Assembly: GCF_050320075.1 (NCBI RefSeq)
Contig: NZ_CP190018.1
Length of the DNA stretch: 64,000 nucleotides
Source of the DNA: Escherichia coli
GTDB lineage: Bacteria; Pseudomonadota; Gammaproteobacteria; Enterobacterales; Enterobacteriaceae
Direction: 5' to 3' (one strand)
Part shown: in pieces, positions 44,949 to 50,894 of the stretch
Layout of the letters: every line of letters begins with the position of its first letter
How positions within the stretch are numbered: position 1 is the stretch's first letter
Notes under the pieces: model-generated
The model's input: only the letters and a program-made list of their open reading frames with translations
Databases searched by the model: none
What the model was told of the DNA's origin: nothing
Program-made: the position numbers and the translations under genes

Positions 44949-44962
44949 TTGATAACGATCAA
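44949..44962. promoter_or_regulatory. FNR-type site (TTGAT-N4-ATCAA) upstream of ydhY
   Basis: perfect TTGATAACGATCAA in the AT-rich ydhZ-ydhY intergenic region; ydhY operon is reported FNR-activated. Confidence 0.55.
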
Positions 44963-45163
44963 TGTTAAGGGCTCAGAATAATCACATTATTTTTTCTCCT
45001 AATCATAAAGGATTAGTTTATCGGCGTTAAATCTTTTCTCATACACTATCGGGTTAGGGAAAATATCTGGTGTTGGGGACAGAGTCAGCAGCGTATTAGT
45101 TGAATGCTTAATATCAGACTGCTGAATTGTCAGCACTGTGTTTGCGAAGAGGATGCGAAATAA

Positions 45164-45790
45164 ATGAACCCGGTTGATCGTCCACTATTAGATATTGGCT
45201 TAACGCGATTAGAATTCTTGCGTATATCAGGAAAAGGCCTTGCTGGTCTAACAATTGCCCCTGCGTTACTGTCACTTTTGGGTTGCAAACAGGAAGATAT
45301 TGATAGCGGCACAGTAGGGTTGATAAATACACCCAAAGGGGTGCTGGTGACCCAGCGAGCGCGATGCACGGGTTGCCACCGCTGTGAAATCTCTTGTACC
45401 AACTTCAACGATGGCTCAGTAGGGACATTCTTCTCCCGTATCAAAATCCATCGCAATTATTTCTTTGGCGACAACGGGGTTGGCTCTGGCGGCGGCCTGT
45501 ATGGCGATCTCAACTATACCGCGGACACCTGCCGACAATGCAAAGAGCCGCAATGCATGAACGTCTGCCCGATTGGTGCGATTACCTGGCAGCAGAAAGA
45601 AGGCTGTATTACCGTCGATCATAAACGCTGTATTGGCTGTAGCGCCTGTACTACGGCATGCCCGTGGATGATGGCCACCGTAAATACCGAAAGTAAAAAA
45701 TCCTCGAAATGTGTGTTATGCGGTGAATGCGCAAACGCCTGCCCAACAGGGGCGTTAAAAATTATCGAGTGGAAAGATATTACTGTGTGA
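45164..45790 (+). CDS. ydhY: 4Fe-4S ferredoxin-like protein
   Basis: 208-aa ORF with multiple CxxCxxCxxxCP motifs. Confidence 0.9.
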   Translation: MNPVDRPLLDIGLTRLEFLRISGKGLAGLTIAPALLSLLGCKQEDIDSGTVGLINTPKGVLVTQRARCTGCHRCEISCTNFNDGSVGTFFSRIKIHRNYFFGDNGVGSGGGLYGDLNYTADTCRQCKEPQCMNVCPIGAITWQQKEGCITVDHKRCIGCSACTTACPWMMATVNTESKKSSKCVLCGECANACPTGALKIIEWKDITV

Positions 45791-45810
45791 ATCTTGCAAA
45801 GGAAAAAATC

Positions 45811-48627: not shown

Positions 48628-49296
48628 ATGTCCTTCACTCGACGCAAATTTGTTCTGGGGATGGGAACAGTAATCTTTTTTACTGGTTCTGCGTCTTCTC
48701 TGTTAGCGAACACGAGGCAAGAAAAGAAAGTTCGGTATGCCATGATTCATGACGAGTCACGGTGCAATGGCTGTAATATTTGCGCCCGCGCATGCCGTAA
48801 AACTAACCACGTCCCCGCTCAGGGAAGCCGTTTATCGATAGCACACATTCCAGTCACCGATAACGACAACGAAACGCAGTATCACTATTTTCGCCAGTCA
48901 TGCCAGCACTGTGAAGATGCTCCTTGCATCGACGTATGCCCGACAGGGGCGTCGTGGCGTGATGAGCAGGGGATCGTGCGGGTAGAAAAATCGCAGTGCA
49001 TCGGCTGCAGTTATTGCATTGGCGCTTGTCCTTACCAGGTTCGCTACCTTAACCCTGTCACTAAAGTGGCAGATAAATGTGATTTCTGCGCTGAGTCCCG
49101 ACTGGCAAAAGGCTTTCCGCCCATTTGCGTCAGCGCCTGTCCGGAACACGCATTGATCTTTGGTCGCGAAGATAGCCCAGAAATTCAGGCGTGGTTGCAG
49201 GAAAATAAATACTATCAATATCAGCTACCTGGTGCCGGGAAACCGCACCTGTATCGCCGGTTCGGTCAACATTTGATTAAAAAGGAAAATGTATGA
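48628..49296 (+). CDS. ydhX: Tat-signal 4Fe-4S ferredoxin-like protein
   Basis: start at ATG 48628 (MSFTRRKFVLG twin-arginine motif, 222 aa); four Cys clusters. Confidence 0.85.
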   Translation: MSFTRRKFVLGMGTVIFFTGSASSLLANTRQEKKVRYAMIHDESRCNGCNICARACRKTNHVPAQGSRLSIAHIPVTDNDNETQYHYFRQSCQHCEDAPCIDVCPTGASWRDEQGIVRVEKSQCIGCSYCIGACPYQVRYLNPVTKVADKCDFCAESRLAKGFPPICVSACPEHALIFGREDSPEIQAWLQENKYYQYQLPGAGKPHLYRRFGQHLIKKENV

Positions 49297-50078
49297 ACCC
49301 GTCGCAACATGCTGAACAGTTTCAGAGCCAGTTGGCGAACTATGTGCCACAGTTCACTCCCCAATTTTGGCCGGTGTGGTTGATCATTGCCGGACTATTG
49401 CTGGTAGGGATGTGGTTTGTGCTGGGGCTGCATGCCTTGCTTCGTGCTCGTGGCGTGAAGAAATCAGCCACCGACCATGGTGAGAAGGTTTATCTTTACA
49501 GCAAAGCGGTCAGATTATGGCACTGGTCGAATGCGTTACTCTTTGTATTGTTGCTGGCAAGTGGGCTGATAAATCACTTTGCGCTGGTGGGCGCAACTGC
49601 GGTTAAAAGTCTGGTTGCGGTGCATGAAGTTTGCGGATTTTTGTTACTGGCATGTTGGCTCGGCTTTGTTCTGATCAATGCCGTTGGGGGTAATGGTCAC
49701 CATTATCGCATTCGTCGTCAGGGGTGGCTGGAGCGAGCGGCAAAACAAACGCGATTCTATTTGTTTGGCATTATGCAGGGGGAAGAACATCCTTTCCCGG
49801 CAACAACACAGTCTAAATTTAATCCCTTACAGCAGGTTGCCTATATTGGTGTCATGTATGGATTGCTGCCGTTGTTACTATTGACGGGGCTGCTGTGTCT
49901 CTATCCGCAAGCCGTGGGAGATGTGTTTCCTGGCGTAAGATACTGGTTATTGCAGGCGCATTTTGCTCTGGCATTTATAAGCCTCTTTTTTATCTTCGGT
50001 CATCTTTATCTTTGCACCACGGGGCGTACGCCACACGAAACCTTTAAAAGCATGGTCGATGGCTATCACCGGCACTAA
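49293..50078 (+). CDS. ydhU: membrane cytochrome b-like subunit (PhsC/NrfD-like)
   Basis: 261-aa polytopic membrane ORF, ATGA overlap with ydhX. Confidence 0.85.
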   Translation: MNPSQHAEQFQSQLANYVPQFTPQFWPVWLIIAGLLLVGMWFVLGLHALLRARGVKKSATDHGEKVYLYSKAVRLWHWSNALLFVLLLASGLINHFALVGATAVKSLVAVHEVCGFLLLACWLGFVLINAVGGNGHHYRIRRQGWLERAAKQTRFYLFGIMQGEEHPFPATTQSKFNPLQQVAYIGVMYGLLPLLLLTGLLCLYPQAVGDVFPGVRYWLLQAHFALAFISLFFIFGHLYLCTTGRTPHETFKSMVDGYHRH

Positions 50079-50081
50079 CGA

Positions 50082-50894
50082 ATGATCATTACACGAGCAG
50101 ACCTGCGAGAATGGCGTATCGGAGCGGTGATGTATCGCTGGTTCCTGCGCCATTTCCCACGCGGCGGTAGTTATGCCGATATTCATCATGCACTGATTGA
50201 GGAAGGATATACGGACTGGGCGGAGAGTCTGGTTGAGTATGCGTGGAAAAAATGGCTGGCGGATGAAAACTTCGCGCATCAGGAAGTTTCCTCTATGCAA
50301 AAATTGGCCACAGATCCCGGAGAGAGACCATTTTGCAGTCAGTTTGCCCGCAGCGACGATCATGCTCGCATCGGCTGTTGTGAGGATAATGCCAGAATCG
50401 CAACCGCTGGGTATGCCGCGCAAATTGCCAGTATGGGTTATAGCGTGCGGATTGGAAGTGTCGGCTTTAACAGTCACATTGGCAGCTCCGGTGAACGCGC
50501 ACGGGTTGCTGTAACCGGTAATTCTTCGCGGATAAGCAGCGCTGGAGATAGTAGTCGGATTGCGAATACCGGAATGCGAGTACGCGTTTGTACATTGGGT
50601 GAACGGTGTCATGTCGCCAGTAATGGTGACCTGGTGCAAATCGCCAGCTTTGGCGCAAACGCCAGAATTGCCAACAGCGGCGACAATGTACACATCATTG
50701 CCAGCGGTGAAGATTCAACAATAGTGAGCACGGGCGTGGTCGACTCAATTATTCTCGGGCCAGGGGGAAGCGCCGCACTGGCATATCATGACGGCGAAAG
50801 AGTTCGCTTCGCCGTCGCCATTGAAGGTGAAAACAATATTCGAGCCGGAGTCCGCTATCGTCTTAATGAACAGCATCAGTTTGTTGAGTGCTGA
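50082..50894 (+). CDS. ydhT: uncharacterised protein YdhT with about 15 tandem 9-residue repeats
   Basis: 270-aa ORF; residues about 93-228 form repeats of pattern x-x-R-I-A-x-x-G-x. Confidence 0.85.
   Translation: MIITRADLREWRIGAVMYRWFLRHFPRGGSYADIHHALIEEGYTDWAESLVEYAWKKWLADENFAHQEVSSMQKLATDPGERPFCSQFARSDDHARIGCCEDNARIATAGYAAQIASMGYSVRIGSVGFNSHIGSSGERARVAVTGNSSRISSAGDSSRIANTGMRVRVCTLGERCHVASNGDLVQIASFGANARIANSGDNVHIIASGEDSTIVSTGVVDSIILGPGGSAALAYHDGERVRFAVAIEGENNIRAGVRYRLNEQHQFVEC

What the first reader, a model, noticed from the sequence alone, without database searches (positions are those of the whole stretch)
44949..50894. ydhYVWXUT: FNR-site-preceded six-gene oxidoreductase operon of still poorly defined function
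A perfect FNR-type palindrome TTGATAACGATCAA precedes a tightly packed operon. It encodes two ferredoxin-like proteins (YdhY; YdhX with a twin-arginine signal), an aldehyde:ferredoxin-oxidoreductase-family Mo/W enzyme (YdhV), a membrane cytochrome-b-like anchor (YdhU) and two proteins of unknown fold (YdhW, YdhT). The architecture suggests a periplasm-facing anaerobic redox module whose physiological substrate is, to my knowledge, unresolved. The 455-bp AT-rich leader region upstream is unusually long.
Basis: partly seen in the sequence, partly recalled or inferred. Interest (0 to 1): 0.45.

Follow-up and report, generated by a model that had tools for sequence, protein, structure and literature searches.

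The report
E. coli ydhYVWXUT orphan molybdoenzyme operon

Summary
TTGATAACGATCAA occurs once in the 64 kb window (44949-44962).

The stretch is 100% identical to an E. coli chromosome, and 5425 of 5426 complete E. coli genomes carry it. [quoted passage not shown] A June 2026 paper still assigns no activity or role to this enzyme class. The reading is therefore supported, but already known.

What I add:
- **Core cassette.** YdhY-YdhV-YdhW recur across phyla. Outside the Enterobacterales they usually sit next to FdhD and TatC. YdhX-YdhU, and then YdhT, are later additions.
- **Lost arginine.** Every locus with YdhX-YdhU has lost the second arginine of YdhY's Tat motif (R-L or R-Q). Every locus without them keeps R-R.
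- **Predicted folds.** YdhW is an acidic tandem winged-helix protein. YdhT is a helical domain plus a nonapeptide-repeat beta-solenoid.
- **The 455 bp.** This is an intergenic regulatory spacer. The inferred leader is about 166 nt and shows no sign of RNA structure.

Most likely this is a periplasm-facing, quinol-linked reductase of unknown substrate.

The parts
44713..44741 (+). Terminator-like hairpin of the upstream gene fumD (ydhZ). It marks the start of the spacer.
   Evidence: 12-pair stem followed by a T-rich tail. fumD is at 44499-44708.
44899..44915 (+). Conserved Fur-box-like block AATGATAATAAATATCA, about 40 bp upstream of the FNR site. Candidate for the published Fur ChIP peak.
   Evidence: Nearly invariant across 11 Escherichia and Citrobacter promoters. 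Fur binding and regulation of the operon are reported in PMC7157518 and PMC10164565. It differs from the 19-mer consensus by more than 3 bases, since the 3-mismatch scan did not find it, so the assignment is inferred.
44949..44962 (+). FNR binding site, a perfect TTGAT-N4-ATCAA palindrome.
   Evidence: Unique in the window. Both half-sites are perfectly conserved in the Escherichia and Citrobacter loci, 155-241 bp upstream of the ydhY ATG. Published as a site at -42.5.
44985..44990 (+). Inferred -10 hexamer CATTAT. The inferred transcription start is near 44998.
   Evidence: Position calculated from the published -42.5 spacing and the sequence. The block CACATTATTT is conserved. Not mapped here.
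45000..45015 (+). Inverted heptamer pair TAATCAT-AA-AGGATTA (7-2-7), about +3 to +18. Candidate NarL/NarP operator.
   Evidence: Read from the sequence. Conserved in 10 of 11 aligned promoters. NarL/NarP regulation is known from citations of Partridge 2008. The match to the TACYYMT heptamer consensus rests on my own knowledge, and the assignment is inferred.
44998..45163 (+). Inferred 5' untranslated leader, about 166 nt, with Shine-Dalgarno AAGAGGA at 45147-45153.
   Evidence: No Rfam match at E<=1. Folding z-score is -1.0. The covariation term is -0.64 kcal/mol, with 2 of 36 pairs compensatory. The last 40 nt before the ATG are strongly conserved.
45164..45790 (+). ydhY: ferredoxin with four [4Fe-4S] motifs (WorS). 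It has a degenerate Tat-type signal (TRLEFLR) followed by a hydrophobic stretch and LLGC.
   Evidence: four Cys motifs; N-terminal motif across loci.
45811..47913 (+). ydhV: catalytic subunit (WorL) of the AOR/WOR family, clade 41 / Class V. It carries a bis-Mo-MPT cofactor, one [4Fe-4S] cluster and a Cys336 metal ligand.
   Evidence: AFOR_N and AFOR_C; NF007354 at 1372 bits. C307, C310, C314, C336 and C558 are invariant in 68 loci. Cofactor and Cys336 come from the literature.
47917..48564 (+). ydhW: acidic cytoplasmic protein (pI 4.5) predicted as two winged-helix domains. It always follows ydhV. Likely a private assembly or escort factor, or a third subunit.
48628..49296 (+). ydhX: four-cluster ferredoxin of the NrfC/DmsB type with a canonical twin-arginine signal, MSFTRRKFVLGMGTVIFFTGSASSLLA.
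   Evidence: best NCBIfam match NrfC, below its cut-off; (T/S)RR(K/Q)F in all enterobacterial loci; listed as a predicted Tat substrate.
49293..50078 (+). ydhU (annotated phsC): membrane cytochrome b anchor and presumed quinol/quinone site.
   Evidence: PF01292; PRK15006 at 457 bits. Several hydrophobic segments. Eight His are invariant in 45 loci.
50082..50894 (+). ydhT: predicted cytoplasmic protein with an N-terminal five-helix domain and a beta-solenoid built from 15 in-register nonapeptide repeats. It was seen only in Enterobacterales-type loci that also have XU.

Best explanation
This is the E. coli ydhYVWXUT operon. It encodes a membrane-linked respiratory-type oxidoreductase of the AOR/WOR family (Class V, clade 41).

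**Regulation (published).** Without oxygen, FNR binds the palindrome centred at -42.5 and activates the promoter. NarL/NarP repress it when nitrate or nitrite is present. Fur binds upstream, and sigma-S holoenzyme transcribes it preferentially.

**Parts (from sequence).**
- YdhV is the catalytic subunit, with bis-Mo-MPT, one [4Fe-4S] cluster and an invariant Cys336.
- YdhY and YdhX are four-cluster ferredoxins.
- YdhU is a cytochrome b with conserved histidines.

**Mechanism (inferred).** YdhY-YdhV and YdhX face the periplasm, and YdhX at least is exported by Tat. Electrons run from menaquinol through the YdhU haems, YdhX and YdhY to YdhV, which reduces a still unknown acceptor that is probably not an aldehyde. 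YdhW is a cytoplasmic factor dedicated to maturation or export of YdhV/YdhY, or a third subunit. YdhT is a lineage-specific cytoplasmic accessory protein of unknown role.
For: **Identity.** 100% DNA match, and the operon is present in 5425 of 5426 E. coli genomes. RefSeq annotation agrees, as do the family matches.

**Regulation.**
- The palindrome is unique in the window.
- It is perfectly conserved in the Escherichia and Citrobacter loci, with one mismatch in Leminorella and Limnobaculum.
- Promoter blocks are conserved.
- Literature: FNR site at -42.5; sigma-S, NarL and FNR; Fur.

**Electron wire.**
- Four Cys motifs each in YdhY and YdhX.
- Invariant cluster cysteines and C336 in YdhV.
- Eight invariant His in YdhU.

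**Outward orientation.**
- The YdhX (T/S)RR(K/Q)F motif is present in every enterobacterial locus.
- All 22 non-enterobacterial loci have a canonical RR signal on YdhY.
- In the first scan, 20 of those loci have FdhD and 14 have TatC beside the cassette.
- The Cetobacterium enzyme is described the same way.

**Not an ordinary aldehyde oxidoreductase.**
- Cys336 is a metal ligand as in BamB, and the AOR second-shell residues are absent.
- 46 aldehydes gave no activity with CsWOR41L.

**Reductase direction.** FNR activation combined with nitrate/nitrite control is the pattern I know from dmsABC and frdABCD (my own knowledge). The anchor is of the PhsC type.

**YdhW.** It follows YdhV in nearly every locus with enough flank, across phyla. 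It has no signal or membrane segment and a pI of 4.5. Its C-terminal tail is conserved from E. coli to Cetobacterium.
Against: - No substrate, activity or growth phenotype is known. The purified YdhV described in the literature lacked a functional [4Fe-4S] cluster near the cofactor and was inactive.
- The direction of electron flow is not established.
- E. coli YdhY lacks the second arginine of the Tat motif (TRLEFLR). A published table of predicted E. coli Tat substrates lists YdhX but not YdhY. How YdhY-YdhV would reach the periplasm is therefore open.
- YdhW does not have the TorD/DmsD chaperone fold.
- A ydhX mutant showed no fitness defect in a systemic mouse infection.
- I could not read Partridge 2008 or Reschke 2019, so the NarL operator and the transcription start are inferred.
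Confidence: 0.6

Rival explanations
1. Same complex, opposite direction. YdhV oxidises an unknown periplasmic donor and passes electrons through YdhY, YdhX and YdhU to the quinone pool, as formate dehydrogenase-N or hydrogenase-2 do.
For: YdhU shares PF01292 with the cytochrome b subunits of formate dehydrogenase and hydrogenases, though the TIGR02125 and TIGR01583 matches fall below their cut-offs. Characterised AOR/WOR enzymes are mostly oxidising enzymes. Nothing in the sequence fixes the direction.
Against: Cys336 and the missing AOR second-shell residues link YdhV to BamB, which catalyses a reduction. No aldehyde was oxidised by CsWOR41L. An FNR-activated, NarL/NarP-controlled operon fits alternative terminal reductases, from my own knowledge.
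Confidence: 0.2
2. In Enterobacterales YdhY-YdhV stay on the cytoplasmic side. The R-L motif would be a remnant Tat signal, as I recall is described for NarG, serving only as a membrane tether or chaperone-binding site. YdhU would carry electrons across the membrane to or from periplasmic YdhX.
For: The second arginine is lost in all 50 intact loci that have YdhX-YdhU (R-L in 48, R-Q in 2), and also in a pseudogenised Brenneria locus (L067) where no genes could be scored. It is kept in all 22 loci without XU. YdhY is missing from a published table of predicted E. coli Tat substrates. The rest of the N-terminal region is unusually conserved.
Against: The hydrophobic stretch and the LxGC cysteine are retained in every enterobacterial locus, which points to continued membrane targeting. 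A periplasmic YdhX would then have no catalytic partner encoded in the operon. The published view places the enzyme in the periplasm.
Confidence: 0.12
3. It is a sulfur-compound reductase (thiosulfate, polysulfide or similar), as the RefSeq name 'phsC, thiosulfate reductase cytochrome B subunit' suggests.
For: YdhU scores 457 bits against the PhsC model, well above its cut-off of 204. RefSeq names it phsC, and KEGG-based work files it under sulfur metabolism. FdhD, described as a predicted sulfurtransferase, sits beside the cassette in other phyla.
Against: The name covers only the anchor. The catalytic subunit is not a PhsA-type bis-MGD enzyme but an AOR/WOR protein. No thiosulfate reductase activity has been tied to this operon in the papers I read.
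Confidence: 0.08
4. It is a genuine aldehyde:ferredoxin oxidoreductase that detoxifies aldehydes, as annotated.
For: AFOR_N and AFOR_C domains and the RefSeq product name. ydhU transposon mutants showed altered fitness under furfural and other chemicals.
Against: The active site differs: a Cys ligand is present and the AOR second-shell residues are absent. No substrate was found for YdhV. 46 aldehydes were negative for CsWOR41L. Only the N-terminal domain aligns well with solved AORs. The partners are membrane respiratory modules, not a soluble ferredoxin.
Confidence: 0.05

Closest known systems
E. coli K-12 ydhYVWXUT operon (Partridge et al. 2008; Reschke et al. 2019)
   Same: The same locus. 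The gene order, the FNR palindrome and the flanking genes fumD and ydhS all match, and the DNA is 95-100% identical across E. coli.
   Different: Only strain-level differences. This window is 100% identical to strain YZLc1-3 over 44709-50894, and most genomes are 95-99% identical.
Class V WOR CsWOR41 of Cetobacterium somerae (PMC13328260)
   Same: A WorS-WorL-YdhW cassette. YdhV is 58-59% identical in Cetobacterium loci, and the YdhW C-terminal tail is nearly identical.
   Different: Cetobacterium WorS has a canonical RR signal. TatC, MoeA and in some loci FdhD lie beside the cassette, with no YdhX, YdhU or YdhT. It prefers W, whereas E. coli YdhV prefers Mo.
[quoted passage not shown]
   Same: AOR/WOR fold. 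According to the 2025 review it also shares a cysteine ligand to the metal (BamB Cys322, YdhV Cys336) and lacks the AOR second-shell residues. C336 is invariant in 68 loci.
   Different: BamB belongs to a cytoplasmic complex. Sequence similarity to YdhV is confined mostly to the N-terminal domain. YdhV is wired to Tat-exported and membrane partners.
Modular quinol-linked periplasmic enzymes: PhsABC, NrfABCD, hydrogenase-2 (HybOABC)
   Same: A Tat-exported four-cluster ferredoxin (YdhX, nearest NrfC) combined with a membrane quinol subunit (YdhU, nearest PhsC).
   Different: The catalytic subunit comes from a different cofactor family. A second four-cluster ferredoxin (YdhY) sits between it and YdhX, so the predicted chain has nine Fe-S clusters plus the YdhU haems.
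Remnant twin-arginine signal of NarG with its chaperone NarJ (my own knowledge, not checked here)
   Same: One arginine of an ancestral Tat motif is lost while the neighbouring residues stay conserved, and a dedicated cytoplasmic accessory protein is encoded in the same operon.
   Different: As I recall it, the NarG remnant lacks a hydrophobic stretch, whereas YdhY keeps one and also keeps the LxGC cysteine. YdhW does not have the NarJ/TorD fold.

Membership tests
FNR-activated promoter with site at -41.5/-42.5 | TTGAT-N4-ATCAA inverted repeat | tested here: met
   Perfect match at 44949-44962, unique in the window and conserved in the Escherichia and Citrobacter loci.
FNR-activated promoter with site at -41.5/-42.5 | Site centred near -41.5/-42.5 from the transcription start, and FNR-dependent expression in vivo | not testable with these tools
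   Reported as -42.5 in the Myers 2013 table. I only checked that a plausible -10 (CATTAT, 44985-44990) sits at the right distance.
AOR/WOR family (pyranopterin Mo/W enzymes) | AFOR_N plus AFOR_C domains | tested here: met
   E-values 1.3e-67 and 5.6e-48; NF007354 at 1372 bits against a cut-off of 868.
AOR/WOR family (pyranopterin Mo/W enzymes) | Cysteines that bind the [4Fe-4S] cluster | tested here: met
   C307-x2-C310-x3-C314 aligns with the P. furiosus AOR cluster motif. C307, C310, C314 and C558 are invariant in 68 loci. Assigning C558 as the fourth ligand is my inference.
AOR/WOR family (pyranopterin Mo/W enzymes) | bis-MPT cofactor carrying Mo or W | not testable with these tools
   Reported for purified YdhV, with a preference for Mo over W.
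Aldehyde:ferredoxin oxidoreductase in the strict functional sense | No protein ligand to the metal, conserved second-shell residues, and aldehyde oxidation activity | not tested
   The 2025 review says YdhV has the Cys336 ligand and lacks the second-shell residues. I confirmed only that C336 exists and is invariant. Literature reports no substrate for YdhV and no activity on 46 aldehydes for CsWOR41L. Functional membership is doubtful.
Class V WOR (clade 41) | [quoted passage not shown] | tested here: inconclusive
   WorL, WorS and a membrane partner are present. E. coli YdhY has TRLEFLR rather than a twin arginine, and its hydrophobic stretch falls below my transmembrane threshold. The 2026 paper does place EcYdh in this class.
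Tat substrate (YdhX) | S/T-R-R-x-F-L-K-like motif, a moderately hydrophobic stretch and an A-x-A-type cleavage site | tested here: met
   MSFTRRKFVLGMGTVIFFTGSASSLLA. (T/S)RR(K/Q)F is present in every enterobacterial locus. Actual export was not tested here; YdhX is listed as a predicted Tat substrate.
Haem-binding cytochrome b of the PhsC/FdnI/HyaC type (YdhU) | PF01292 domain, several membrane helices and at least four conserved His for haem ligation | tested here: met
   PF01292 at 8.9e-31; PRK15006 at 457 bits against a cut-off of 204. Hydrophobic segments are present. His 47, 77, 95, 111, 166, 223, 237 and 259 are invariant. Haem binding itself cannot be tested, and the expectation of two haems is my own knowledge.
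Thiosulfate reductase PhsABC | PhsA-type bis-MGD catalytic subunit in the operon | tested here: not met
   None of the six genes has a molybdopterin-oxidoreductase (PF00384) domain. The catalytic subunit is AFOR.
TorD/DmsD/NarJ redox-enzyme maturation proteins (considered for YdhW) | All-helical TorD fold | tested here: not met
Bacterial lipoprotein (considered for YdhY) | Lipobox L-x-[GAS]-C at the end of a signal peptide | tested here: inconclusive
   LLGC or LFGC, with Cys41, is present in all enterobacterial loci and many clostridial ones, but it is replaced by GF in Cetobacterium and Anaerosolibacter. Lipidation cannot be tested here.

The most novel reading that the evidence does not exclude
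When the YdhX-YdhU module was acquired, the export logic of the enzyme changed. YdhY's own twin-arginine signal lost its second arginine (R-L in Enterobacterales, R-Q in a second lineage), yet the flanking motif, the hydrophobic stretch and the LxGC cysteine stayed under strong selection.

YdhY-YdhV would then no longer be an autonomous Tat substrate. It would leave the cytoplasm either by riding on YdhX's signal or through an unusual single-arginine signal held by YdhW. If it does not leave at all, the enzyme has flipped to the cytoplasmic face.

Any of these would be an undescribed assembly route for a molybdoenzyme. It could also explain why YdhV expressed alone is inactive.
Probability: 0.3. 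Interest if true: 0.5.

Novelty: already known. Interest (0 to 1): 0.28.

Why it matters
YdhV is an E. coli molybdoenzyme that still has no known reaction. It also represents a whole class, Class V / clade 41, with 380 members that make up about 10% of the AOR/WOR family, many of them in gut bacteria, and none has an assigned function. Finding its substrate would add a respiratory or detoxifying capacity to the E. coli model and to gut microbial physiology.

The scan finding does not bring that closer, because it restates what the literature already says. The comparative results here give some practical guidance:

- Express YdhY, YdhV and YdhW together, since they form the conserved core. Consider adding FdhD.
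- Treat YdhX-YdhU as the quinol module.
- Settle the topology first, because the YdhY signal is not a canonical Tat signal in E. coli.

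Tried and rejected
**Structured RNA in the long upstream region: rejected.**
- No Rfam match at E<=1 across 44300-51100.
- The 178-nt leader folds no better than shuffles (z = -1.0).
- The alignment of seven leaders has almost no covariation.

**YdhW as a TorD/DmsD/NarJ-type chaperone: rejected on fold.** The model is a tandem winged helix.

**YdhW as a DNA-binding regulator: considered unlikely.** It has winged-helix domains, but its pI is 4.5 and it is always co-encoded with YdhV. 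This is inference, not a test.

**Fur box: only partly supported.** The consensus scan with up to 3 mismatches found no site in the ydhY promoter; its single match lies in front of sufA. The Fur site proposed here rests on conservation and published ChIP.

**The sigma-70 scan did not call the ydhY promoter.** An FNR site at -42.5 sits where a -35 hexamer would be, so this is not surprising.

**Things I could not do.**
- The afdb50 fold library was unavailable.
- Partridge 2008 and Reschke 2019 are not held.
- The limit on papers read was reached.
- The window is not collinear with record NZ_CP123240.1 outside the verified stretch, so I did not transfer that record's coordinates to distant features.

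Full report
**What is in the sequence.** TTGATAACGATCAA sits at 44949-44962 and occurs once in the 64 kb window. None of 100 shuffles contained it. The general FNR pattern TTGATNNNNATCAA also occurs only there, against 0.13 expected per window.

Downstream lie six + strand ORFs. Their boundaries agree with RefSeq annotation of an identical record:

| Gene | Coordinates |
|---|---|
| ydhY | 45164-45790 |
| ydhV | 45811-47913 |
| ydhW | 47926-48564 (or from 47917) |
| ydhX | 48628-49296 |
| ydhU | 49293-50078 |
| ydhT | 50082-50894 |

The gaps are 20, 3-12, 63, -4 and 3 nt. The list of mechanical ORFs offers longer versions of ydhV and ydhX. Homologues begin at the shorter starts.

The stretch 44709-50894 is 100% identical to E. 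coli strain YZLc1-3. It is present in 5425 of 5426 complete E. coli genomes, almost always once and on the chromosome.

**Families.**
- YdhY and YdhX match 4Fe-4S families, and each has four Cys motifs.
- YdhV has AFOR_N and AFOR_C and matches NCBIfam NF007354 over its full length.
- YdhU matches PF01292 and the PhsC model PRK15006 above its cut-off. It has eight histidines invariant in 45 loci.
- YdhW and YdhT match nothing in the local Pfam copy. The protein database labels them PF27264 (YdhW_C) and PF27195 (YdhT_N).

**What the literature already says.**
- The Myers 2013 table lists the operon with an FNR site at -42.5 and '+' marks in its binding and expression columns.
- Partridge 2008 is cited for control by FNR, NarL and NarP.
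- In vitro, the ydhY promoter is transcribed better by sigma-S holoenzyme.
- Fur binds the promoter region and regulates the operon in a uropathogenic strain. ydhV and ydhY fall in a Fur iModulon.
- Purified YdhV binds bis-Mo-MPT and prefers Mo to W, but no substrate was found. This was explained by the purified enzyme lacking a functional [4Fe-4S] cluster.
- A 2025 review notes Cys336 as a metal ligand, shared only with the benzoyl-CoA reductase subunit BamB, and the absence of the second-shell residues of aldehyde oxidoreductases.
- A June 2026 paper places the enzyme in 'Class V' and states that no member has an assigned activity or role. The Cetobacterium homologue did not oxidise any of 46 aldehydes.
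- A search of 2023-2026 papers found no later assignment.

**The upstream region.** The 455 bp is the fumD-ydhY spacer, not a leader. It begins with the fumD terminator hairpin at 44713-44741, and its upstream part is 24-32% G+C.

With the published -42.5 spacing, the start falls near 44998. That leaves a leader of about 166 nt.

Aligning 11 Escherichia and Citrobacter promoters shows discrete conserved blocks:
- a Fur-box-like AATGATAATAAATATCA at 44899-44915
- the FNR site
- CACATTATTT, containing a -10 (CATTAT, 44985-44990)
- an inverted heptamer pair TAATCAT-AA-AGGATTA at 45000-45015, which I read as the NarL/NarP operator just downstream of the start
- a block ATCGGGTTAGGG of unknown meaning
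- the last 40 nt before the ATG

The Fur and NarL assignments are inferences.

The FNR palindrome is perfect in the Escherichia and Citrobacter loci, 155-241 bp upstream of ydhY. It has one mismatch in Leminorella and Limnobaculum. With at most one mismatch allowed, it was not found at a comparable position in Proteus, Brenneria or Budvicia.

The leader shows no sign of RNA structure:
- no Rfam match
- folding z-score of -1.0
- negligible covariation

In the annotated neighbourhood the spacer is the second longest of 48. The longest precedes sufA, another heavily regulated promoter. The length is best explained by several regulators sharing the region.

**Comparative anatomy.** A scan of one genome per species with YdhV returned 70 loci.

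YdhY-YdhV-YdhW recur together in Enterobacterales (YdhV 71-99% identical). They also recur in Clostridia, Cetobacterium, Halanaerobium and a Desulfobacteraceae genome (46-59% identical).

YdhX-YdhU-YdhT were seen only in the Enterobacterales: Escherichia, Citrobacter, Leminorella, Limnobaculum, Budvicia, Proteus, Brenneria, Symbiopectobacterium and one Serratia record.

Outside that order, YdhW is followed by an FdhD-family gene in 20 loci and by TatC in 14. Molybdopterin biosynthesis genes are often nearby. This matches the published description of the Cetobacterium operon.

Seven more look-ups through distant YdhW relatives added:
- two YVWXUT loci
- two YVWXU loci that lack YdhT
- a YVW-MoeA locus
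- a partial W-X-U contig
- one uninformative fragment

The core is therefore Y-V-W. X-U is an added quinol module, and T is the youngest and narrowest part. YdhT has only 47 clusters among 5.8 billion proteins.

**The signal on YdhY.** All 22 loci without X-U have a canonical (T/S/N)RR(E/D/Q)FL motif. Two of them have too little downstream sequence to rule X-U out.

All 50 intact loci with X-U have lost the second arginine: 48 have (T/S)RL(E/D)FL and two have TRQEFL. YdhX always keeps (T/S)RR(K/Q)F. One pseudogenised Brenneria locus (L067) also has R-L, but none of its genes could be scored.

The rest of the YdhY N-terminus stays highly conserved, including the hydrophobic stretch and an LxGC lipobox-like motif.

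The loci are related, so this reflects one or two evolutionary events, not 50 independent ones. [quoted passage not shown] None of the papers I read notes that the E. coli motif is degenerate. A published table of predicted E. coli Tat substrates lists YdhX but not YdhY. This leaves open how, or whether, E. coli YdhY-YdhV cross the membrane.

**YdhW and YdhT.** Both gave usable models.

YdhW (pLDDT 79):
- It has two winged-helix units and a C-terminal helix.
- It is acidic (pI 4.5), with no signal or membrane segment.
- Its last residues, EW-EV-Q--NP, are conserved from E. coli to Cetobacterium.
- The family has 572 representatives at 50% identity.
- It is not a TorD-type chaperone by fold. 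Its constant position after YdhV fits a dedicated assembly or escort factor, or a third subunit.

YdhT (pLDDT 85):
- It has a five-helix N-terminal domain and a beta-solenoid.
- The solenoid is built from 15 in-register nonapeptide repeats, I-A-S-x-G-D/E-x-x-R.

**Most likely mechanism.** Three parts are shown: the identity of the locus, the parts list and the conserved cofactor ligands. C307, C310, C314, C336 and C558 of YdhV are invariant in 68 loci. Regulation by FNR, NarL/NarP, Fur and sigma-S is published.

The rest is inferred. I propose a periplasm-facing chain: menaquinol, then the YdhU haems, YdhX, YdhY, the YdhV cluster and finally Mo-bis-MPT, ending in reduction of an unknown acceptor.

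- The outward orientation rests on the YdhX signal and on the RR signal plus adjacent TatC in other phyla.
- The reductase direction rests on the regulatory pattern, the PhsC-type anchor and the BamB-like active site. It is the weakest step.

The rivals are the reverse direction, a cytoplasmic YdhY-YdhV with a remnant signal, a sulfur-compound reductase, and a true aldehyde oxidoreductase. The last is the least likely.

**Verdict.** The finding is real, correctly read and already known. It scores low for novelty. The underlying open question, what this enzyme does, is genuine, but the finding does not make it more testable. The arginine loss tied to the X-U module is a small, apparently unreported lead that bears on how to obtain an active enzyme.

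Noticed in passing
window 45164-45290 (YdhY residues 1-42): The Tat motif of E. coli YdhY is degenerate (TRLEFLR), and it is followed by a lipobox-like LLGC. The second arginine is missing in every locus that also encodes YdhX-YdhU and is kept in every locus that does not.
   Followed up: yes
window 50894-50906: ydhT and the convergent gene ydhS (50906-52510, - strand) end only 11 bp apart, with no terminator-like hairpin between them. A 2025 paper lists ydhS-ydhT among overlapping convergent transcripts ('excludons').
   Followed up: partly
window 35196-35214: The only match in the window to the Fur consensus with up to 3 mismatches (GTTAGTGATAATGATTATC, - strand) lies 41 bp upstream of sufA (35255-35623). 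sufB starts just downstream, so the suf Fe-S assembly genes lie about 9 kb from this Fe-S-rich operon.
   Followed up: partly
window 45120-45135 and 45126-45166: A small hairpin, TGCTGA-ATTG-TCAGCA, followed by a T-rich run sits just before the ydhY Shine-Dalgarno. The 40 nt before the ATG are almost invariant between Escherichia and Citrobacter, more than ribosome binding alone would need. It could be an sRNA or translational control site.
   Followed up: no
window 45048-45059: A conserved mid-leader block, ATCGGGTTAGGG, has no obvious meaning.
   Followed up: no
window 42530-44158 (- strand): The 542-aa mechanical ORF is an over-extension. RefSeq annotates pykF (470 aa), with the small gene ynhH directly upstream of it, on the identical record. 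fumD (ydhZ, 44499-44708) is transcribed divergently from them.
   Followed up: partly
window 53049-53206 (- strand): Two tandem tRNA-Val (GAC) genes lie downstream of ydhS and ydhR.
   Followed up: no
L061:5654-13433 (Oribacterium sp.): Here the Y-V-W cassette is flanked by MobB, FdhD and a protein with an FMN_bind domain upstream, and by MoeA downstream. The YdhW homologue is longer (301 aa). This suggests a different electron partner in some Clostridia.
   Followed up: partly
L006-L040 (Citrobacter loci), about 4 kb upstream of ydhY on the - strand, e.g. L006:4279-4938: A second gene for a four-cluster ferredoxin, 28-36% identical to YdhX and YdhY, lies upstream of fumD in many Citrobacter genomes. 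I did not identify it.
   Followed up: no
L067 (Brenneria izbisi) and L059 (Citrobacter amalonaticus): The operon looks decayed or fragmented in these records. There are stop codons in ydhY of L067 and split hits in L059. This could be pseudogenisation or assembly error.
   Followed up: no
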